Shown: positions 2,719 to 52,756 of the stretch, piece by piece
How the letters are laid out: each line of letters opens with the position of its first letter
Numbering within the stretch: position 1 is the stretch's first letter
From: an uncultured Gammaproteobacteria bacterium
Lineage (GTDB): Bacteria; Pseudomonadota; Gammaproteobacteria; Steroidobacterales; SZUA-146
NCBI GenBank assembly: GCA_963922815.1
Contig: CAWUKD010000004.1
Coordinates: 1 to 57,701 of the forward strand
DNA: 57,701 nt
Direction of reading: 5' to 3'
Made by a program: the position numbers and the translations under genes
Notes under the pieces: generated by a model
What the model saw: the letters and a program-made list of their open reading frames with translations, nothing else
The model's database searches: none
What the model was told of the DNA's origin: nothing

Positions 2719-3807
2719 ATGAAAATCAAGGACGTTGTGACCAGTCGTGCCCGGTTATTCTGGGTACTAAACGTGGCCGGCTGGATCGGATACGTCGCGC
2801 CGTCGTACATTGGCGCGTTGTTCTACGAGAAGCCCCAGACCTATTTCAAACTCATCAGCGCGGTTGCGATCATGGGTTTCCTGATCAGTCTGGCTCTTCG
2901 AATTGCCTGCCGCAGACTATGGGAACGACCCCCGGCCATCATGGCACTGGGCACGCTCGTAAGCTGCTACGTCCTTGCACTCGGCTGGCGGCTTTACAGC
3001 AATTATCTCTACATCGAGTGGATCGAATCAAAGTGGCGCCCGGAAGGGTTCATGGACTACGTCAGCGGCGTCATGAGCTCGTTCTACGTACTTTTGTGCT
3101 GGAGTGGTTTGTATTTCGGGATTCGCTACTACCAGCAGCTGCAGATGCAAACAGAGCAAACCCTGCGGGCCAACTCGGCAGCACACGAAGCGCAGCTCAA
3201 AATGCTGCGCTATCAGCTTAACCCGCATTTTCTGTTCAATACGCTCAACGCCATTTCCACGCTGATTCTGGATCGCGCCAATGAAACGGCCAACCTGACC
3301 GTATCCAAGCTCAGCGACTTCCTGCGTTACACGCTGGACAATGATCCAAAGAATCATGTGACCTTACGCAAGGAACTGGAGGCCATTGATCTGTACCTCG
3401 AAATTGAAAAGGTAAGATTCGGCGACCGCCTGACCGTACAACGGGAAATAGAAACCGCAGCTCAGGACGCCCTGGTTCCCAGCCTGATTTTGCAACCGCT
3501 GATCGAAAATGCCATTAAATATGCAGTAACGCCCAGAGTGGACGGTGGCTGCGTACGACTCAGTGCGAAAATTCGCGGCACCAGTCTGATCCTGTCGCTG
3601 TCTGATGACGGCCCGGGCCTGACCCGGCAAAACACCAAATCCAGCAATTCCACAGGCGTTGGCCTGATCAACACACGCGAACGCTTGCGCGAACTCTATG
3701 GCGATCAACAGTCACTGAAGCTATCGCCCAATGATCCAAAAGGACTTGTTGTGACGATTACTCTACCCTATCAGGATGCCGACAATGATCCGCGCACTAC
3801 TGGTTGA
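2719..3807 (+). CDS. LytS/YehU-type sensor histidine kinase
   Basis: N-terminal TM helices; LRYQLNPHFLFNTLN H-box; LQPLIENAIKY; DDGPG; GVGLINTRERL. Confidence 0.93.
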   Translation: MKIKDVVTSRARLFWVLNVAGWIGYVAPSYIGALFYEKPQTYFKLISAVAIMGFLISLALRIACRRLWERPPAIMALGTLVSCYVLALGWRLYSNYLYIEWIESKWRPEGFMDYVSGVMSSFYVLLCWSGLYFGIRYYQQLQMQTEQTLRANSAAHEAQLKMLRYQLNPHFLFNTLNAISTLILDRANETANLTVSKLSDFLRYTLDNDPKNHVTLRKELEAIDLYLEIEKVRFGDRLTVQREIETAAQDALVPSLILQPLIENAIKYAVTPRVDGGCVRLSAKIRGTSLILSLSDDGPGLTRQNTKSSNSTGVGLINTRERLRELYGDQQSLKLSPNDPKGLVVTITLPYQDADNDPRTTG

Positions 3808-17303: not shown

Positions 17304-18626
17304 TCACTGTTCCCGGAGTTTTTCGATCGCTCCGATATCGATGCCAGAGCCCTGGGGGCGAGGCGTGCTTTGAACGTCCAGCGAGCCTGTTGCTACGGGT
17401 GACGGGAAGCCAGCATCCTCAAACCAGGCCAATGCCAGACTCGCGATAGTAGTCGTATCGATGTTATAGGAGCGTGCTCTGTCAACCCGAACCCCTTTTT
17501 GCCCGAGCGGCATACCCCGCAAATACCCATCGGTCCAGTTAGACGCGTACTGTGCCCGACGCAGGCTCCAGCCTTTTATCGCAATTGTGTCCCGGCCCAA
17601 CACTGCGTTATTGAAAACCAGTACGTCATTCGCACGCCACAGGGCCAGATACAATCCTGCGGCTGCAGGGATGCGGCTAACGATCGTGTTATTGACAACG
17701 GCAACGTTAGCAGGAGCACCCACCGTTCGATGACGGCGAACGACGATGCCGGCCTGCCTGGAGTCGATAACCACATTGCCCCGTACAATCGCATCAGTTA
17801 CCACCTGAATGCCCTCGGTGCAATTTTCGAACACATTGTTCTCAACGATATTTACATCGTCAACGTCCCCATAAACCAGCACGCACGGAAAGTCGTGCAC
17901 CTGGTTTTGTCCGGTAATGCGATTGTGTGCAATCAGGTTGCCACCCGAACCGGGCTTGAGTTCAATACCATCATTACCCCCTGCCCCTTTCGACTGAAGG
18001 TTGTACAAAACGTTGTGTTCAATTCTGCTATCGGATACCTGGCAGCTTCCGTCATGGCAACCAAGATAGAACCCCTCGCCTTCCGTCTCGCCCGAACTTT
18101 GACCCGTGGTATGAATGGTATTGTGATGCAGCGCCAGTCGCATCGAACTTCCGGTATTGGCAGCAAAGGCGGTATTGCCGGTATCGCGAATGACCGAATG
18201 GGCAAGCTCAAAATCGCGGGTGTCACCCATCAGGCGAACGCCAATACTTCCCCCTGCAAACTCAAGACCTTGTATCGTCACATGCCGTGCATCAATGATC
18301 TCTATGTTGTTCTCTGTGTTTCTGTTGCGTTCCGGGCGAGTTAATACGGGTCGCTCACCCTCAGCCGCTCTGATCAGTATGGGTTGCCCGGCCGTGCCCT
18401 GAATGTTCAGCGCACGACGGCAGGACTGCACATAGTGCCCTCCGCGAAGCACCAGCGTATCGCCCGGCTGTAACCGGTTTGCCACCGTTTCAAACTCTTC
18501 GACGCAATCCGAACCGGCAACAGATGGGCCAATCTCAAAAGTCTCGGCAACGACACAGCGCGCAGCCGGCGTCGCGAGTACTAACAGTGCACCTGTGACA
18601 ATAACTCGCTGACGGGCTGAAGCCAT
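17304..18626 (-). CDS. Secreted right-handed parallel beta-helix repeat protein
   Basis: Hydrophobic N-terminus; Asn/Ile-rich beta-helix rungs (IEHNVLYN, IAHNRI, VENNVFEN); C-terminal PRPQGSGIDIGAIE motif. Start uncertain (18626 or 18662). Confidence 0.75.
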   Translation of the reverse strand: MASARQRVIVTGALLVLATPAARCVVAETFEIGPSVAGSDCVEEFETVANRLQPGDTLVLRGGHYVQSCRRALNIQGTAGQPILIRAAEGERPVLTRPERNRNTENNIEIIDARHVTIQGLEFAGGSIGVRLMGDTRDFELAHSVIRDTGNTAFAANTGSSMRLALHHNTIHTTGQSSGETEGEGFYLGCHDGSCQVSDSRIEHNVLYNLQSKGAGGNDGIELKPGSGGNLIAHNRITGQNQVHDFPCVLVYGDVDDVNIVENNVFENCTEGIQVVTDAIVRGNVVIDSRQAGIVVRRHRTVGAPANVAVVNNTIVSRIPAAAGLYLALWRANDVLVFNNAVLGRDTIAIKGWSLRRAQYASNWTDGYLRGMPLGQKGVRVDRARSYNIDTTTIASLALAWFEDAGFPSPVATGSLDVQSTPRPQGSGIDIGAIEKLREQ

Positions 18627-18721
18627 ACGTGGCAGAGAAAACTGTTTTACCCGGAAGTTCATTCCGAAACAGTAATGCGCTTCAATTCATAGCGCAACGA
18701 ACCGCTACCGTTTCAGGCAAT

Positions 18722-18754
18722 AAAAAACGGGGCAACCAGAAACTGATCGCCCCG
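18722..18754 (-). terminator. Intrinsic terminator after the 115-aa gene
   Basis: Minus strand CGGGGCGATCAG-TTT-CTGGTTGCCCCG followed by T6. Confidence 0.85.
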
Positions 18755-18816
18755 CAAAGGGGTCGCTGCCGGGGTAGGCAGCGGGGTACAAGTGAATCGC
18801 CGGCAAGCTATGCGGG

Positions 18817-19164
18817 CTAATTCACTGCTGAGATGAGGTTACTGACCTCATCGGGGAGACGTTTATCGAGCGAATCCAGAATTTGCTCGGAAAAGTCGCT
18901 GGCAAGCAAAGACGACCGTTTTGCCGATTCAAACTCGTCAGCCAGACGTTCGCTCAATTCGAATTTAATGTTTGTCGTAAAGTCCAACGTGAGCTTCTGA
19001 ATATCAGCATCAAGCTCGAACAGCTCATCGCTTTGAGCCATACGGGTCTGGGTGGCCAGCACAGCGATAACATCCATATCTGCGGTTGCAGAGATTGAAA
19101 AACCTCCGGTCGCGATCAGCATCAGGGCGGCCAGGGGACTCATTACGTAGTTCAGTGTTTTCAT
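18817..19164 (-). CDS. Uncharacterised small secreted acidic protein
   Basis: AAGGAGG RBS; signal peptide ending ATA; flanked by a sigma54 promoter and a terminator. Confidence 0.75.
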   Translation of the reverse strand: MKTLNYVMSPLAALMLIATGGFSISATADMDVIAVLATQTRMAQSDELFELDADIQKLTLDFTTNIKFELSERLADEFESAKRSSLLASDFSEQILDSLDKRLPDEVSNLISAVN

Positions 19165-19200
19165 GGTTTGATCCCTCCTTCTTGGGAATACTGACTCTAT

Positions 19201-19216
19201 TGCAAACCCCGTGCCA
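19201..19216 (-). promoter_or_regulatory. sigma54 (-24/-12) promoter
   Basis: Minus strand TGGCACG-GGGT-TTGCA, exact consensus with GG-N10-GC spacing. Confidence 0.9.
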
Positions 19217-19225
19217 ATTATGGGT

Positions 19226-19324
19226 TATCAATATTTTCAATGACTTATATCCTTTACTTGGGTATAGTAATTAACGGTTTTACGTGATTGACGATATTAC
19301 GTTATTTTTATTACGATATTTCGT
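19226..19324. promoter_or_regulatory. IHF-like site and tandem enhancer (UAS) for the sigma54 activator
   Basis: TATCAAtattTTC (19226-19238, near WATCAANNNNTTR); ACGATATTACGT (19291-19302) and ACGATATTTCGT (19313-19324), 22 bp apart. Confidence 0.6.
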
Positions 19325-19340
19325 GTATACTGCGTGAAAT

Positions 19341-21170
19341 ATGAGTGAAACCAATATATTACCTGAGCAATACCGGTGGATGTTTCAACAAGGCCCCCAC
19401 CTGGCATCCGCCACCGATCGCACCGGTCGTTTCTGCGACGTGAGTGACGAGCTGCTTAGGCGTCTGGATTATTCACGTGAACAGTTCCTGAAGATGTCTC
19501 CTCAGGACATTGCGACCGAACAAACGCAACAGGACCTTCTGTCTGACTACCTGCCCAGGCTCAGACTGGCGGGACGCATCGATCATGCCCCGATTGAATA
19601 TCAGTCACGTAGCGGCGAATCACTTAAACTTGTCGCCGATACCATCGTTCACGAAGACGACAACCACGAGTTTCTCGCAGTCAGCTACTATCAGGAGCTG
19701 GACAGCTGGGACAAGATCTCGCATCGCTTTAAAGCGTTTTACCTTGCAACTCCGGCCATGCTTCACACCATGGACCACAACGGCTGCATCCTTGAAGTTA
19801 GCGATCGCTGGCTACACAAACTGGGCTATGCCCGCAAGGACGTGATCGGCCGTTATATTGGCGACTTCTACACAGAAACCGTTCGCGAGGAACTTCAGGA
19901 CGGCAGCCTTACACACCTGAATTTTGCCGAAGAATACAGCAATCACGAGCGCCAGATGGTGACGCGTTCAGGGGAAATTCTGGACGTTCTCGTATCGGCG
20001 GCGCGGGTGAATAACCGGCGCGGCGAACCGATACGCCTGCAAGTGGCCATCAAGGACGTGACGGATCGAAACAGGGCCTTAAGCGACTTGCAAAAAGCAT
20101 TCGATGAAAACGCCAAGCTGCGTAATGCGCTGGAGCTTGAGCGTGACTACCTTCGGGAGAATATCCGGGAGTCAATGAATGACGGCGAAATCGTTGGTGG
20201 CAGCCCTGCTCTGCAATCGATGCTTGGCCGAATTGAGGCGGTCGCTTACACCACGGCAAACGTACTCATCATTGGCGAGTCCGGTACGGGCAAGGAACTG
20301 GTATCGCATGCAATCCATTCGCGCAGTCAGCGAAAGAACGAACCGCTGGTCACCGTGAACTGCGCATCCATACCGAGCGAATTATTTGAAAGTGAATTTT
20401 TCGGGCACGTTAAGGGCGCCTTCACCGGAGCGACACGCGACCGAATTGGTCGCTTTCAACTTGCCGACGGCGGCACAATATTCCTGGACGAAGTGGGCGA
20501 AATCCCTCTTGAACTTCAGAGCAAACTGCTCCGTGTGCTCGAGCAACAACAGTTCGAGCGAGTCGGCGATGACAAGACCCGAACAATTGATGTTCGCATC
20601 ATTGCGGCAACCAACCGAGATCTTGCTGACGAAGTCGCCGCGGGGCGTTTTCGCGAAGACCTGTTCTATCGTCTCAACGTGTTTCCAATCGACGTACCAC
20701 CGCTGAGAGAACGGGGTGATGACGTTATTCATATTGCCAGCCACTTTATTGCCGACATATGCAATGATTTCGGGCGCCCACTCCTCGCACTTAGCGAACG
20801 CAACGTCAGACAGCTGCGGGCCTACTCCTGGCCAGGCAACGTGCGGGAACTCAGAAACGTGCTGGAACGCGCGATCATCCTGAGCAGAGACAACAAAATC
20901 AACCTCTCGATTCCCGTTGGCCCTGCTCAGGACGCGCCCAGAGCAACCGCGGTTGTCACCAATGACTACCTGAACGAGCAGGAAATGCGGGCCTTTACAA
21001 AACGGAATCTCGAGCAGGTGCTGCGCGCCGCGAATGGAAAAGTATCCGGCGAAGGCGGCGCTGCAGAGCTGCTCGGACTCAAGCCCACAACGCTGACCGA
21101 TCGACTGCGTTCTTTTGGTATCGAAATGCCCGCAAAACGGCGGGGAAGGCCCAAACGCAGCAGCTCGTGA
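19341..21170 (+). CDS. PAS-PAS sigma54-dependent activator (bEBP, Fis HTH)
   Basis: Two PAS domains; GESGTGKE, GAFTGA, FLDEVGE, RIIAATNRDL, FREDLFYRLNVFPI; C-terminal HTH. Confidence 0.95.
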   Translation: MSETNILPEQYRWMFQQGPHLASATDRTGRFCDVSDELLRRLDYSREQFLKMSPQDIATEQTQQDLLSDYLPRLRLAGRIDHAPIEYQSRSGESLKLVADTIVHEDDNHEFLAVSYYQELDSWDKISHRFKAFYLATPAMLHTMDHNGCILEVSDRWLHKLGYARKDVIGRYIGDFYTETVREELQDGSLTHLNFAEEYSNHERQMVTRSGEILDVLVSAARVNNRRGEPIRLQVAIKDVTDRNRALSDLQKAFDENAKLRNALELERDYLRENIRESMNDGEIVGGSPALQSMLGRIEAVAYTTANVLIIGESGTGKELVSHAIHSRSQRKNEPLVTVNCASIPSELFESEFFGHVKGAFTGATRDRIGRFQLADGGTIFLDEVGEIPLELQSKLLRVLEQQQFERVGDDKTRTIDVRIIAATNRDLADEVAAGRFREDLFYRLNVFPIDVPPLRERGDDVIHIASHFIADICNDFGRPLLALSERNVRQLRAYSWPGNVRELRNVLERAIILSRDNKINLSIPVGPAQDAPRATAVVTNDYLNEQEMRAFTKRNLEQVLRAANGKVSGEGGAAELLGLKPTTLTDRLRSFGIEMPAKRRGRPKRSSS

Positions 21171-34829: not shown

Positions 34830-35926
34830 TCCGCCTTCTCCAGTTGACGCTTTAATACAGTCAGATGATTGCGCACACCGTCGTGCTCGAAATACGCATC
34901 CTGCAAATGGCGTCTTCCCGAAGGATCAAACCCGTTGCGAGCATGCAAGACCCGGTGTCCGGCGACCAGCAAACACTGTTCGCTTTCCAACCTGAAGACT
35001 ACTCGCGCCTGTTCGCTCATTAACCGCCTGCTGAGTTCGTGATAGGCCAAATAGAACGCCTCCAGCTTTGGTGTATTCGGGCTCAGGGTTTGCATCAGCT
35101 GATTCGAGTAGCGCAAATGAACTACGCCGCCGTCAGCGCCCACCCGAATAACCGGATTGACTGCAAAGGTTTCTTCCTGTTCATCAAACATCCTGAATGG
35201 CACCGACACCTGACATAGCACGTCGAACATATCCGGATGGTCGATTCTGAGCTGCTCGGCAATGGCCCATCCGTCTACAATAACTGTTTCGCCTCCTTCA
35301 CACTCGTTTACCAGCATATGTAGCCCCTGAACCGACGGAGGCCAGGACGAACTGGCAAAGTCATTGTGCGGCGGCAGAGGCAGCGACGTATGTGCCACGT
35401 TATAGCCGCCCGGATCCACCCGTACTTCATGTAACCGACCAAAGGGCATGTCGCGTATGCACCCAAGTCGCGGCTGCAAGCGCTCCAGCATGCCGCTCCT
35501 GCCCGGCATGTTAGTAATAACCAGCGCACCCAACGTAAGGAACTGCTCTATGGCGGAAGCCGCAACAACAGCTGTGTGCAGGAACTCGCCGAATTCGACC
35601 GTTGGCGGCGAAAACCCCTTGGTCCAGTGTTTGGTCTGAACTCCATCAAACCGTTCCAGCGTTCGAATATAGTCACCGTCAAAGCGGCTTTCGTGTCCGT
35701 CCGGCCACCGGATGACCAGCTCATCGTTTGAGAGCGCGGCACTGGCAGGACGCAGTTGCGCCGGAACGGAGGACAACATAAACCGCTTCTCATCCGTTTG
35801 CACAACGCGACACTCGGCGCACCGGCAATTGTCACGCAACCACAAGTGTGGCAGCTCACACTGTGTACTGTTGGCCCAGGTAACGCGGGTCACCGTGGTG
35901 CCTATGTCGACTGTTCCGGGCATCAT
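34826..35926 (-). CDS. Fe(II)/2-oxoglutarate dioxygenase, BBOX/TmpA-like (TauD family)
   Basis: GBBH-like N-domain WLRDNCRCAEC; HND...H(VLHAR) facial triad; RHLQDAY; ATGA overlap with the HD gene. Confidence 0.85.
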   Translation of the reverse strand: MMPGTVDIGTTVTRVTWANSTQCELPHLWLRDNCRCAECRVVQTDEKRFMLSSVPAQLRPASAALSNDELVIRWPDGHESRFDGDYIRTLERFDGVQTKHWTKGFSPPTVEFGEFLHTAVVAASAIEQFLTLGALVITNMPGRSGMLERLQPRLGCIRDMPFGRLHEVRVDPGGYNVAHTSLPLPPHNDFASSSWPPSVQGLHMLVNECEGGETVIVDGWAIAEQLRIDHPDMFDVLCQVSVPFRMFDEQEETFAVNPVIRVGADGGVVHLRYSNQLMQTLSPNTPKLEAFYLAYHELSRRLMSEQARVVFRLESEQCLLVAGHRVLHARNGFDPSGRRHLQDAYFEHDGVRNHLTVLKRQLEKAE

Positions 35927-45418: not shown

Positions 45419-46291
45419 TCAGGTTTTTGCGTGGCCGATGCGTTGGGCAGCCTGAAGCGTGTTGCGCAATAAACACGCGATGGTCATGGGACCCACTCCG
45501 CCAGGCACCGGCGTAATCGCCCCGGCGACATCAGCGGCGCCATCAAAATCAACGTCTCCGACGAGACGCCCCTTCCCGCCCTCTTCTGCATCGATCCGGT
45601 TTATCCCGACGTCAATGACAATGGCCCCCGGCTTGATCCAGTCCGCCTTGATCATTTCGGGACGCCCGACGGCTGCTACCAGAATGTCAGCCGTGCGGCA
45701 TAACGCAGGCAGATCGCGGGTACGTGAATGAGCTATGGTGACGGTACAGCTTTCGCCCAGCAACAATAGCGCCATGGGTTTGCCGACAATGTTCGATCTC
45801 CCTACCACCACCGCGTTCATGCCGGACAACTCAACGCCCCGTTCTTTGAGCATTAACCAGCAACCCAGCGGCGTACAGGGTACAAATCCTTCTTCACCGA
45901 CCACCAGCTTGCCCACATTGTCGATGTGAAATCCGTCTACGTCTTTGGCTGGAGAAATCGCATTGATAACCTGCTGTTCATCGATATGCCTTGGCAGAGG
46001 CAGCTGTACCAGAATTCCGTGCACGGCATTATCGTTGTTCAACTGCTCCACCAGTGCAAGAAGCTCTTCCTGTGAAGTAGTCTCGGGCAGCTCGTGCGTA
46101 AAGGAGTTAAATCCGGCTTCTTTGGCCATCTTGCCTTTACTGCGAACGTAGACCTGGCTGGCCGGATCAGAACCTACAATCACAACCGCCAAACCAGGCG
46201 TGATTCCCGTGGCAACCAGTTCCGCCGTGTCAGCTGCAATGGTCTCTCGCAGAGCTTTTGCGTGTGCCTTTCCGTCGATCAAATCTGCCAT
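45419..46291 (-). CDS. folD: Methylenetetrahydrofolate dehydrogenase/cyclohydrolase
   Basis: [52 protein letters not shown]. Confidence 0.97.
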
Positions 46292-51838: not shown

Positions 51839-52756
51839 TCAGAGCGCATCCCCGAAAAAAGAAAGTATATGTTGTGTGACCGCCTCAGGCGCTTCCAGCT
51901 GCGGGTAATGGCCTATACCGGGCAACCCAACAATATCGCCACGGTCAACAAGCTCCCTAAACCTCGCAACCATATGCGCACCGGATACAGGGTCACTTGA
52001 TCCGTTAATCAGCCCCAGTGGCATTTTCGTATGAGTGAGCGCCTCAACCCAGCGGGTTCTATGCTCCAGTCGATCTTTCATGTACCACATCAAACGGTGC
52101 AGGTTGCGCCTGCCGTTGTTGTGCTCCGTTAACGTCCAAAAGTTCTCCAGCTCTGTCGCCGAAGGCGGCGTACCCGGCCCAAACACTTTGGTCAGATTTT
52201 TTTCCAGCGCCCGCCGGCCAAATGCTTTGACGAACAAACCACCGGCCGGCCCAACCAGCAGCTTTTGTGCCAGCCGCGCCCTGTGCGTCTCCGGGAACAA
52301 CCCCCCGTTCAGCAGACACACGGCATCGATAACCGGAGCACCCGATTCGTGAAATCGTGCCATGATCTCCTGCGCGACCGTATCACCGTAATCGTGAGCC
52401 AGTATCGAAAACCGCCCGATCCCCAGGTCAGTCATCAGGGCCAGCGCAAGGTCTGCCTGCTCATGAATGCTGTAGCGATAATTGACCGGCTTGTCAGAAT
52501 AGCCAAACCCCAGTAAATCCAGCGTGATGACGCGGTAGCGTTCGGCGAGCGCATCCCACTGGTAGTGCCAGTCCCAGCTCGAGGTCGGAAACCCGTGCAG
52601 CAGCAACACCACGGGCCTGGCCGCCTCGTCATTCGCGACAGATGATCCGCTATCGACCACAAAAAGCGAGCGGCCGCCAACGGTTTTCATACGCCCGTTC
52701 GCCTTCCAGGCGTTCAGCGTATAGCCATCGGACGCGTTTGCCGCCCGACTACTCAC
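51839..52756 (-). CDS. MEST-like alpha/beta hydrolase (epoxide hydrolase superfamily)
   Basis: LHGFPTSSWDW, AHDYGD (Asp nucleophile), DPVSG, GHYPQLE. Confidence 0.88.
   Translation of the reverse strand: MSSRAANASDGYTLNAWKANGRMKTVGGRSLFVVDSGSSVANDEAARPVVLLLHGFPTSSWDWHYQWDALAERYRVITLDLLGFGYSDKPVNYRYSIHEQADLALALMTDLGIGRFSILAHDYGDTVAQEIMARFHESGAPVIDAVCLLNGGLFPETHRARLAQKLLVGPAGGLFVKAFGRRALEKNLTKVFGPGTPPSATELENFWTLTEHNNGRRNLHRLMWYMKDRLEHRTRWVEALTHTKMPLGLINGSSDPVSGAHMVARFRELVDRGDIVGLPGIGHYPQLEAPEAVTQHILSFFGDAL

What the first reader, a model, noticed from the sequence alone, without database searches (positions are those of the whole stretch)
18722..21170. Complete sigma54 module devoted to one unknown 115-aa secreted protein
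Seen: perfect -24/-12 box, IHF-like site, two 12-bp near-palindromic repeats about 75-110 bp further upstream, strong RBS, a signal-peptide ORF and a terminator, all divergent from a PAS-PAS bEBP. The repeats also overlap a possible TTGACG-N18-TACGAT promoter of the activator (autoregulation). Inference: an ATP-costly, tightly gated monocistronic output responding to a PAS-sensed ligand, redox state or light; the protein matches no family I recognise.
Basis: partly seen in the sequence, partly recalled or inferred. Interest (0 to 1): 0.68.

Follow-up and report, generated by a model that had tools for sequence, protein, structure and literature searches.

The report
Order-wide sigma-54 switch, small exported protein
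A textbook sigma-54 promoter with its own PAS-sensor activator drives one tiny exported protein; the same two-gene cassette, so far undescribed, recurs across the bacterial order that contains Woeseia, and in most relatives its transcript also ends in conserved C-rich RNA hairpins.

Summary
A consensus -24/-12 box (TGGCACGgggtTTGCA, 19201-19216, minus strand) is followed by a strong ribosome-binding site, a 115-aa signal-peptide ORF (18817-19164) and a 13-bp terminator. All of this is divergent from a PAS-PAS/AAA+(GAFTGA)/HTH activator (19341-21170).

Corrections:
- There are three ACG-N6-CGT sites, not two. This is the only such cluster in the 4-Mb assembly.

New findings:
- About half of the 301 sampled genomes of this order have the activator. 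All 24 loci examined have the divergent sigma-54 box followed by a small ORF with a hydrophobic N-terminus.
- The ORF sequence is hypervariable (37-115 aa) but under purifying selection (dN/dS 0.09-0.38).
- The window's protein family has 14 members among 5.8 billion clusters. It matches no Pfam, NCBIfam, PDB or Foldseek entry.
- A paralogue elsewhere in the genome has its own sigma-54 box and a different enhancer.
- In relatives the 3'UTR carries hairpins with CCUCCCCC-type loops that match no Rfam family. The window keeps only a reduced version (loop UACCCC).

Regulation is ordinary. The protein and the RNA element are undescribed, and their function is unknown.

The parts
19341..21170 (+). 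Sigma-54 enhancer-binding activator, 609 aa: PAS, PAS, AAA+ domain with GAFTGA, Fis-type HTH. No receiver domain and no transmembrane segment.
   Evidence: Pfam: Sigma54_activat E 8.9e-72, PAS_9 two stretches, AAA_lid_14, HTH_8 weak. Below every NCBIfam equivalog cut-off. Orthologues at 35-75% identity in the PAS region in 154 of 301 genomes of the order and in none of the other orders sampled in the class.
19326..19331 (+). Candidate -10 hexamer (TATACT) of the activator's own sigma-70 promoter, 9 nt before the ATG. This implies a leaderless or near-leaderless mRNA.
   Evidence: Invariant TATAMT in five loci of the genus (alignment A4). No Shine-Dalgarno sequence precedes the ATG. Its function is inferred.
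19288..19317 (+).
   Evidence: Found by the consensus scan at 9/12 matches. The -10 reads TACGAA or TACGTT in relatives, so its T6 is not conserved.
19313..19324 (.). Enhancer (UAS) site 1, ACGATATTTCGT, centred about -128.5. It abuts the activator's -10.
   Evidence: Binding by the activator is inferred.
19291..19302 (.). Enhancer site 2, ACGATATTACGT, centred about -106.5.
19274..19285 (.). Enhancer site 3, ACGGTTTTACGT, centred about -89.5.
   Evidence: The 17/22-bp spacing of the three sites is kept in congeners and across the order.
19226..19238 (+). IHF-like site TATCAATATTTTC (one mismatch to WATCAANNNNTTR), centred about -42.
   Evidence: not significant alone. Perfect sites at the same position in G001 and G003. 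The ATTGA core is conserved in A4.
19201..19216 (-). Sigma-54 -24/-12 promoter TGGCACGgggtTTGCA. Predicted transcription start near 19190.
   Evidence: Only exact match in the window. The box is invariant while its spacer varies in five genus loci. A TGGCAY-N6-TGCW box sits at the equivalent place in all 24 loci examined.
19173..19180 (-). Shine-Dalgarno sequence AAGGAGGG, 8 nt before the ATG.
   Evidence: AAGGAGGGAT is conserved in the genus.
18817..19164 (-). Small ORF, 115 aa. Signal peptide residues 1-28 (cleavage ATA|D). Mature protein 87 aa, 9.8 kDa, pI 4.1, no Cys, His, Trp or Gly. Contains two repeats of about 29 residues, each ending in RL(P/A)DE. Residues 46-114 are predicted as one long helix.
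   Evidence: dN/dS 0.17-0.28 within the genus. 14 family members among 5.8 billion clusters. No Pfam, NCBIfam, PDB or Foldseek match.
18764..18783 (-). 3'UTR hairpin CGCUGCC-UACCCC-GGCAGCG with a C-rich loop, followed by single-stranded ACCCCUUU.
   Evidence: Conserved in the genus with two compensatory pairs. It is the positional counterpart of the CCUCCCCC-loop hairpins in 18 of 23 loci.
18727..18755 (-). Intrinsic terminator: 13-bp stem, then UUUUUUAUUG.
   Evidence: Conserved in G001, G003 and L017.

Best explanation
This is one copy of a self-contained, single-target sigma-54 cassette that is conserved across the gammaproteobacterial order containing Woeseia oceani.

Proposed mechanism:
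1. A soluble cytoplasmic activator (PAS-PAS, AAA+, HTH) senses an unknown intracellular signal through its PAS domains.
2. It binds three ACG-N6-CGT sites centred near -89, -106 and -128.
3. With IHF-type bending near -42, it uses ATP to open the sigma-54 promoter at 19201-19216.
4. The product is a short transcript of about 460 nt, with three parts:
   - a 26-nt leader with a strong ribosome-binding site;
   - a 115-aa precursor that is exported by Sec and cleaved to an 87-aa acidic protein, mostly one long amphipathic helix;
   - a 3'UTR with a C-rich-loop hairpin and a strong terminator.
5. Enhancer site 1 abuts the activator's own -10, so the bound activator probably represses its own weakly translated, nearly leaderless gene.

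What is shown and what is inferred:
- Shown by sequence and conservation: the promoter, the sites and their geometry, the coding status of the ORF, the export signal, the terminator and the single-locus enhancer.
- Inferred: who binds the sites, the signal sensed, autoregulation and what the product does.

My committed guess for the product is a signal-gated envelope factor that acts by binding a partner, through its helix and its N-terminal beta-strand. In relatives a regulatory 3'UTR RNA rides on the same transcript. The window keeps only a reduced form of that RNA.
For: Promoter and activator:
- Consensus -24/-12 box, unique in the window. rpoN and 13 activator genes are present. Strict sigma-54 boxes precede what look like flagellar and type IV pilin genes elsewhere in the genome.
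- GAFTGA and Walker motifs are present. Domains as.

Conservation:
- Footprint in five loci of the genus: the box, three sites, the ATTGA core, the ribosome-binding site and TATAMT are conserved while the spacers vary.
- The same layout occurs in a one-repeat variant in G004.
- Twenty loci from other families all have the divergent sigma-54 box, and 19 of them have 1-3 ACG-N-WWWW-N-CGT sites, often with the same 17-18/22-23 bp spacing.
- The enhancer cluster is unique in the 3.99-Mb assembly.

The small ORF and the transcript:
- ORFs are under purifying selection, dN/dS 0.09-0.38.
- Signal peptide and mature-protein properties. Helix models with pLDDT 80-88 over residues 50-114.
- Terminator and structured 3'UTR, z = -4.8.
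- C-loop hairpins in 18 of 23 loci against 0.039 per 250 nt of background.
- The motif YCYCCCCC is almost confined to these 3'UTRs, with only 4 stray matches in about 360 kb.
- In the six-sequence alignment (five genomes), 10 of 26 pairs show compensatory changes.
Against: - There are no expression data.
- The activator-to-site assignment rests only on adjacency and co-conservation.
- The IHF site is not significant by itself.
- The HTH_8 match is below Pfam's cut-off.
- The window's C-loop reads UACCCC and lacks the CCUCC core seen in relatives, so an RNA function here is doubtful.
- The small proteins of different families cannot be shown to be homologous beyond about 23 columns around the cleavage site.
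- One congener, G002, lacks the cassette, so it is dispensable.
- The AlphaFold models have low overall confidence (pLDDT 66-68) and show a lone helix, which says little about function.
Confidence: 0.6

Rival explanations
1. The conserved working product is RNA. The transcript, or a fragment processed from its 3'UTR, acts as a riboregulator whose C-rich loops (which mimic the 16S anti-Shine-Dalgarno sequence) pair with G-rich ribosome-binding sites of target mRNAs. The small ORF is secondary, or helps control the RNA's fate.
For: - Across families the protein sequence is not conserved, but hairpins with CCUCCCCC-type loops are. 18 of 23 loci have at least one, 26 in all, against about 0.9 expected.
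- The motif is nearly exclusive to these 3'UTRs on the transcribed strand.
- Stems differ completely between taxa but stay paired. In the six-sequence alignment (five genomes), 7 of the 11 pairs of the C-loop stem are compensatory.
- A related locus gives a weak hit to the alphaproteobacterial ar14 family (21.5 bits, E 0.09). From my own knowledge, ar14 is a family of sRNAs with anti-Shine-Dalgarno-like loops.
- Within the genus the hairpin has two compensatory pairs and a conserved loop.
Against: - In the window the element is reduced to a single 7-bp hairpin with loop UACCCC.
- The ORFs are under purifying selection and keep strong ribosome-binding sites and signal peptides.
- No Rfam family reaches its threshold.
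- No targets were predicted or tested.
- C-rich hairpins could instead stabilise the mRNA or bind a protein.
Confidence: 0.2
2. The exported protein is a TonB-box decoy or adaptor. Its first mature residues form a beta-strand like the TonB box of outer-membrane receptors. It docks on TonB's periplasmic domain and so modulates TonB-dependent uptake when the PAS signal is present.
For: - The genome's own TonB-dependent receptors begin, after their signal peptides, with [LI]EE[VI]VVTA.
- Small proteins of the cassette in other families begin with IDEIVVTAPR (twice, G005), MDEIVVNGAE, LDEVVVSGAE, SLVITAERP and TIVITAKRP at the same position.
- The only region that aligns between the window's family and the other families is this strand.
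Against: - The window's motif (DMDVIAVLATQ) is a weak match.
- The motif is absent from the Woeseia-type members.
- Short hydrophobic strands after signal peptides are common.
- There are no co-occurrence or structural data.
Confidence: 0.1
3. The unit is not monocistronic. Partial read-through of the terminator also expresses the downstream secreted beta-helix (Pel9A/NosD-like) gene at 17304-18662. The small protein would then be its partner, for example an inhibitor, chaperone or anchor.
For: - The order small ORF then beta-helix gene is kept in the window, G001, G003 and L017.
- No sigma-70-like promoter was found in the 64 nt between the terminator and the beta-helix start.
- A conserved CCCC tract could pair with the terminator's GGGG arm.
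Against: - The terminator is strong (13 bp plus a U-run) and conserved.
- Outside the genus the cassette has unrelated downstream genes, often on the other strand.
- The paralogue is followed by a convergent gene.
Confidence: 0.15
4. The protein is an envelope-stress chaperone or buffer analogous to ZraP, Spy or CpxP. It would be induced when the PAS sensor reports a cytoplasmic consequence of envelope or redox stress.
For: - It has the same genetic logic as zraP-zraSR: a small periplasmic helical protein behind a sigma-54 promoter, divergent from its activator. This comparison is from established knowledge.
- The mature protein is small, helical and free of cysteine.
Against: - No match to the relevant Pfam families and no LTXXQ motif.
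- No His or Cys residues for metal binding.
- The activator has no partner kinase and no periplasmic sensing domain.
Confidence: 0.1

Closest known systems
ZraR (ZraSR)-zraP of Escherichia coli and Salmonella
   Same: A sigma-54 promoter divergent from its activator gene drives a single small periplasmic, helical protein. The activator's sites lie in the shared intergenic region.
   Different: ZraR is a response regulator with a partner kinase, whereas this activator has two PAS domains and no receiver. ZraP belongs to the CpxP/Spy family with LTXXQ motifs and binds metal, whereas this protein has no family match and no His or Cys.
PspF-pspA(BCDE)
   Same: A dedicated activator is encoded divergently from its single sigma-54 target. 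IHF assists. The activator autoregulates through sites that overlap its own promoter.
   Different: PspF has no sensor domain and is controlled by PspA, and PspA is cytoplasmic. Here the sensor is built into the activator (PAS-PAS) and the product is exported.
NtrC-glnA-GlnZ (a sigma-54-dependent mRNA whose 3'UTR is an sRNA; bioRxiv 10.1101/2022.04.01.486790, abstract seen)
   Same: One sigma-54/activator-dependent transcript yields both a protein and a candidate regulatory 3'UTR RNA.
   Different: GlnZ is an Hfq-type seed sRNA downstream of a large housekeeping gene. Here the ORF is tiny and exported, and the RNA motif is a set of C-rich hairpin loops. Processing and function are untested.
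ar14 / 'cuckoo' sRNAs such as CcsR1-4 of Rhodobacter (Rfam RF02344), and other C-rich-loop sRNAs (RsaE, 6C RNA)
   Same: Repeated hairpins whose loops carry CCUCC-type anti-Shine-Dalgarno motifs, placed in the 3'UTR of a very small ORF. This description is from my own knowledge of those RNAs.
   Different: The lineage, promoter type and ORF differ: here the ORF has a signal peptide, not DUF1127. The Rfam score is far below threshold (21.5 against 58.8 bits in a relative, nothing in the window). The window has a single degenerate loop.
OrpR-type PAS sigma-54 activators with a divergent small target (lead from earlier scan note e1-1045040)
   Same: A PAS-containing sigma-54 activator sits back to back with a sigma-54 promoter that drives a small secreted helical-repeat protein.
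   Different: That case is described with a four-cysteine redox sensor in Betaproteobacteria. This activator has only four scattered Cys residues and no such motif. Homology between the small proteins could not be tested.

Membership tests
Sigma-54 (RpoN)-dependent promoter with a bacterial enhancer-binding protein | -24 GG and -12 GC elements with the correct spacing, matching YTGGCACG-N4-TTGCW | tested here: met
   TTGGCACGGGGTTTGCA at 19201-19216 is the only exact match in the window. It is conserved in all 24 loci examined.
Sigma-54 (RpoN)-dependent promoter with a bacterial enhancer-binding protein | The genome encodes RpoN, and the activator has an AAA+ domain with the GAFTGA loop | tested here: met
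   Sigma54_DBD hit on contig C8, E 1.5e-67. Sigma54_activat E 8.9e-72. GAFTGA and GESGTGKE are seen in the translation.
Sigma-54 (RpoN)-dependent promoter with a bacterial enhancer-binding protein | Upstream activator sites at about -80 to -150 | tested here: met
   Three ACG-N6-CGT sites centred at -89.5, -106.5 and -128.5. They are conserved and form the only such cluster in the genome. Actual binding was not tested.
Sigma-54 (RpoN)-dependent promoter with a bacterial enhancer-binding protein | Transcription requires RpoN and ATP hydrolysis by the activator | not testable with these tools
   This needs reporter or in-vitro transcription assays.
CpxP/Spy/ZraP periplasmic chaperone family | Match to the family's profile and LTXXQ motifs | tested here: not met
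   No such Pfam or NCBIfam hit for any of 16 family members. No LTXXQ in the sequence.
PspA/IM30 | PspA/IM30 domain in a cytoplasmic coiled-coil protein | tested here: not met
   No Pfam hit. The protein has a cleavable signal peptide.
ar14 / cuckoo (CcsR) sRNA family, Rfam RF02344 | Covariance-model score at or above the gathering score | tested here: not met
   Nothing in the window at E up to 1. 21.5 bits against a 58.8-bit gathering score in related locus L044. No Rfam family reaches gathering score in 16 loci.
ar14 / cuckoo (CcsR) sRNA family, Rfam RF02344 | Hairpin loops carrying a C-rich anti-Shine-Dalgarno motif, downstream of a small ORF | tested here: inconclusive
   Met in relatives, with CCUCCCCC loops in 18 of 23 loci. 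In the window only UACCCC is present. The upstream ORF is not DUF1127.
TonB-box-bearing TonB ligands | N-terminal [DE]-x-[IV]-V-V-T-A-like strand directly after the signal peptide, which binds TonB | tested here: inconclusive
   The genome's own receptors read LEEVVVTA. The window protein reads DMDVIAVLA. Relatives read DEIVVTAPR or DEVVVSG. Binding is untestable here.
Named sigma-54 activators (NorR, FhlA, NifA, PrdR, NtrC, PspF and others) | NCBIfam equivalog score above the curated cut-off | tested here: not met
   The best match is NorR at 366.6 bits against a cut-off of 476, and it covers only the AAA+ part. All others are also below cut-off.

The most novel reading that the evidence does not exclude
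The cassette is an order-specific, PAS-gated sigma-54 switch whose conserved product is a bifunctional RNA. It encodes a fast-evolving exported peptide with a TonB-box-like N-terminus. Its 3'UTR is an undescribed family of anti-Shine-Dalgarno-mimicking C-loop riboregulators. One cytoplasmic signal would then reprogram envelope uptake and translation of target mRNAs at the same time.
Probability: 0.2. Interest if true: 0.75.

Novelty: new variant of a known kind. Interest (0 to 1): 0.55.

Why it matters
Woeseia-type Gammaproteobacteria are, to my knowledge, among the most abundant bacteria of marine sediments, yet almost nothing is known about their regulation. The full-text library held no paper that mentions both Woeseia and sigma-54.

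This cassette would be a clean, self-contained entry point for three reasons:
- It has one sensor, one enhancer and one promoter.
- It is present in about half of the sampled genomes of the order and in none of about 297 genomes sampled from other orders of the class.
- One member, Woeseia oceani, is cultured, so the predictions can be tested.

Its outputs are an exported mini-protein family without any database relative and a structured C-rich-loop RNA element absent from Rfam. If the RNA part is a riboregulator, it would add a sigma-54-driven, 3'UTR-borne anti-Shine-Dalgarno sRNA to the Gammaproteobacteria. The regulatory mechanism itself is textbook and not surprising.

Tried and rejected
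Searches for a known family or relative of the small protein:
- Pfam and NCBIfam gave nothing for the small protein, for 16 family members, or for 10 positional counterparts from other families.
- A PDB profile search and Foldseek against the PDB gave nothing usable. The model is a lone helix, so fold search is uninformative.
- The exhaustive representative search found one real relative; the other three hits are local matches to much longer proteins.
- The first genome-contig scan found nothing. The second found only the two congeners.

Searches on the RNA:
- Rfam at E up to 1 on the window region and at gathering score on 16 loci found nothing. Low-score hits (ALIL, CRISPR repeats, Pseudomon-Rho) were judged to be chance.

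Ideas tested and dropped:
- That the paralogue on contig C21 belongs to the same regulon. Its upstream region carries TGTCCG-N3-CGGACA repeats instead of ACG-N6-CGT.
- That the small proteins of all families are demonstrably homologous. hhalign gives only 65% probability over 23 columns.
- That the C-rich loop pairs with the transcript's own ribosome-binding site. By eye the complementarity is poor in the window and is not general.

Other dead ends:
- The PAS ligand could not be inferred from solved structures.
- Literature searches found no description of the cassette.
Full report
**What is in the window**

On the minus strand the sequence reads TTGGCACGGGGTTTGCAATAG (box at 19201-19216). This is the only exact TGGCAC-N5-TTGCW match in 57.7 kb. 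It puts the predicted transcription start near 19190.

- A ribosome-binding site, AAGGAGGG (19173-19180), lies 8 nt before the ATG at 19164.
- The ORF (18817-19164) encodes 115 aa with a classical Sec signal peptide ending ATA|D.
- The mature 87-aa protein is acidic (pI 4.1). It has no Cys, His, Trp or Gly and carries two repeats of about 29 residues (...DF..I...L..RL.DE).
- Two AlphaFold runs, with alignments of 5 and 16 sequences, both give one long helix over residues 46/48-114 at pLDDT 80-88. The N-terminus is poorly defined.
- The 3'UTR folds into a 7-bp hairpin with loop UACCCC (18764-18783) and a 13-bp terminator (18727-18755), with z = -4.8 against shuffles.

The divergent gene (19341-21170) is a sigma-54 activator with the domain order PAS, PAS, AAA+, lid, HTH. 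It has GESGTGKE and GAFTGA motifs and no receiver or membrane segment. It falls below every NCBIfam equivalog cut-off. The genome has rpoN and 13 activators.

**Enhancer and autoregulation**

A third site lies at 19274-19285. The centres fall at about -89.5, -106.5 and -128.5, spaced 17 and 22 bp apart.

In the whole 3.99-Mb assembly there are 44 strict sites. The only place where two or more fall within 60 bp is this locus. This supports a single-target activator, with the caveat that the genome is 93% complete.

An alignment of five loci of the genus (window, G001, G003 and two metagenome contigs) shows what is conserved:
- The three sites, the TTGGCACG/TTGCA elements, an ATTGA core at the IHF-like position and the ribosome-binding site are conserved, while the spacers vary.
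- TATAMT, on the activator's strand, is invariant. In the window it is TATACT at 19326-19331, 9 nt before the activator's ATG and 1 nt after site 1.

I therefore favour a weak promoter that yields a nearly leaderless activator mRNA and is occluded when site 1 is occupied. This is inference.

The IHF-like site is not significant alone, but it is a perfect consensus at the same place in G001 and G003.

**The protein family**

- Only 14 proteins among 5.8 billion clusters belong to the family, all 112-115 aa and all from marine metagenome-assembled genomes.
- The exhaustive search of 1.8 billion representatives adds one real relative; its other three hits are local matches to much longer proteins.
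- The family splits into two types. Type A is the window's type. It is always divergent from the PAS activator and is followed by a secreted beta-helix gene.
- Type B is a paralogue on contig C21 of the same genome. The two types are homologous over their full length (hhalign 96.7%, E 4e-10).
- Type B has its own consensus sigma-54 box but a different enhancer, TGTCCG-N3-CGGACA, and no adjacent activator.
- A congener, G004, carries a one-repeat version of about 90 aa behind the same enhancer and promoter.
- No Pfam, NCBIfam, PDB-sequence or Foldseek match exists.

**The cassette is order-wide**

- Using only the PAS-PAS region (260 aa) as the query, 154 of 301 genomes of the order have a match (42 of 73 genera). 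About 140 of these are full-length matches at 34-75% identity in proteins of about 600-650 aa, apart from a few truncated or longer frames.
- None of about 297 genomes from other orders of the class match at E up to 1e-30.
- One member is Woeseia oceani, where the small gene is annotated as hypothetical (BA177_03000). This is how I place the order, because the genome handles themselves are unnamed.
- In all 20 loci fetched from other families there is a divergent TGGCAY-N6-TGCW box about 110-130 bp from the activator's start. In 19 of the 20 there are 1-3 ACG-N-WWWW-N-CGT sites.
- Where three sites match, they usually keep the 17-18/22-23 bp geometry.
- Each box is followed by a small ORF of 37-115 aa with a basic and then hydrophobic N-terminus.
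- These ORFs differ greatly in sequence but evolve under purifying selection. dN/dS is 0.09-0.38 in the six close pairs where it could be computed; dS was saturated in the seventh.
- Profile comparison between the window's family and the other families aligns only about 23 columns around the cleavage site.
- In many members that stretch resembles the TonB box of this genome's own outer-membrane receptors (LEEVVVTA). Examples are IDEIVVTAPR, MDEIVVNG and LDEVVVSG. The window's DMDVIAVLA is a weak version.
- I treat this resemblance as a lead only.

**A conserved RNA element rides on the transcript**

- Downstream of the stop codon, 18 of 23 loci have at least one perfect hairpin of 6 bp or more whose loop holds a run of four or more Cs, typically CCUCCCCC. 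There are 26 such hairpins in all.
- The background is 0.039 per 250 nt in this genome. Controls gave 2 in 8.1 kb of the promoter-to-stop segments and 1 on the reverse complement.
- In the 9-kb loci, the motif YCYCCCCC occurs in the 3'UTR on the transcribed strand in 17 of 20 loci. It occurs only four times elsewhere in about 360 kb.
- Stems differ entirely between taxa but remain paired.
- A six-sequence alignment from five genomes gives an 11-bp C-loop stem with 7 compensatory pairs. It also gives a second small helix and a long-range terminator helix. In total 10 of 26 pairs are compensatory.
- No Rfam family reaches its threshold. The best sub-threshold hit is ar14, which I know as an alphaproteobacterial family of anti-Shine-Dalgarno-loop sRNAs.
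- In the window's genus the element is reduced to one hairpin, GCURCY-U(A/U)CCCC-RGYAGC, with two compensatory pairs, followed by single-stranded (A/U)CCCC(U).
- The RNA-level reading is therefore well supported for the cassette as a whole and weak for this window.

**Verdict**

The regulatory logic is textbook, comparable to PspF-pspA or ZraR-zraP. What is new:
- The cassette defines an order-specific, apparently single-target circuit in a poorly studied but abundant marine lineage.
- Its protein product has no database relatives and evolves fast.
- Its transcript carries an undescribed C-rich-loop RNA element in most relatives.

Function remains inferred. An earlier scan note (e1-1045040) describes an architecturally similar pair in Betaproteobacteria, a PAS activator with a secreted repeat protein. 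I could not test any relationship to it.

Noticed in passing
G000 contig C21:24642-25032 (+) = L009 5643-6036: A 115-aa paralogue of the small protein (24% identity; hhalign 96.7% between the two subfamilies). It has its own consensus sigma-54 box, TGGCACGGCCCTTGCA, and a different conserved upstream repeat, TGTCCG-N3-CGGACA. No activator gene is adjacent. It sits between a 588-aa TPR protein and a convergent M19 dipeptidase gene, and this layout is conserved in G001, G002 and three metagenome contigs. The activator that serves it is unknown.
   Followed up: partly
window 19326-19343: The activator gene has no Shine-Dalgarno sequence, and its conserved -10 (TATACT) ends 9 nt before the ATG. 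This suggests a leaderless or near-leaderless mRNA for the regulator.
   Followed up: partly
window 17304-18662 (-): A secreted 452-aa right-handed beta-helix protein (Beta_helix/NosD; Pel9A-like in a relative). It lies directly downstream of the small ORF's terminator. This order is kept in the window, G001, G003 and a metagenome contig (L017), but not outside the genus. No sigma-70-like promoter was detected in the 64 nt before its start.
   Followed up: partly
L043, L044, L046, L056 (5'UTRs) and the ORF ends in 10 of 23 loci: In one group of families the leader carries a conserved TCGGAGTTTCGT motif just before the small ORF. Ten of the 23 small proteins end in Arg-Gly-stop (coded CGCGGYTAR), directly before the structured RNA. 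It could be a peptide or translation-termination signal, or part of the RNA. It is absent from the window.
   Followed up: no
L042 3423-3438 and about 3117-3389 (G004, same genus): A one-repeat version of the protein, about 90 aa, sits behind the same three-site enhancer and a variant sigma-54 box (TGGCATGcaaaTTGCT). The number of repeat units therefore varies within the genus.
   Followed up: partly
G000 contigs C101 (about 11640, -), C137 (about 6528, -), C26 (about 7767, -): Three further strict-consensus sigma-54 boxes in this genome also precede ORFs that start with signal-peptide-like sequences. Small exported proteins may be a recurrent sigma-54 output in this organism.
   Followed up: no
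window 35382-35397 (-), 52257-52272 (-), 45759-45774 (-), 17928-17943 (-): One-mismatch sigma-54-like boxes elsewhere in the window. Their number is within chance expectation (5 against 2.6 expected) and they were not examined.
   Followed up: no
G002 (same genus): This 96%-complete congener lacks both the PAS activator and the type A small protein but keeps the type B paralogue. The cassette is therefore dispensable and can be lost as a unit.
   Followed up: partly
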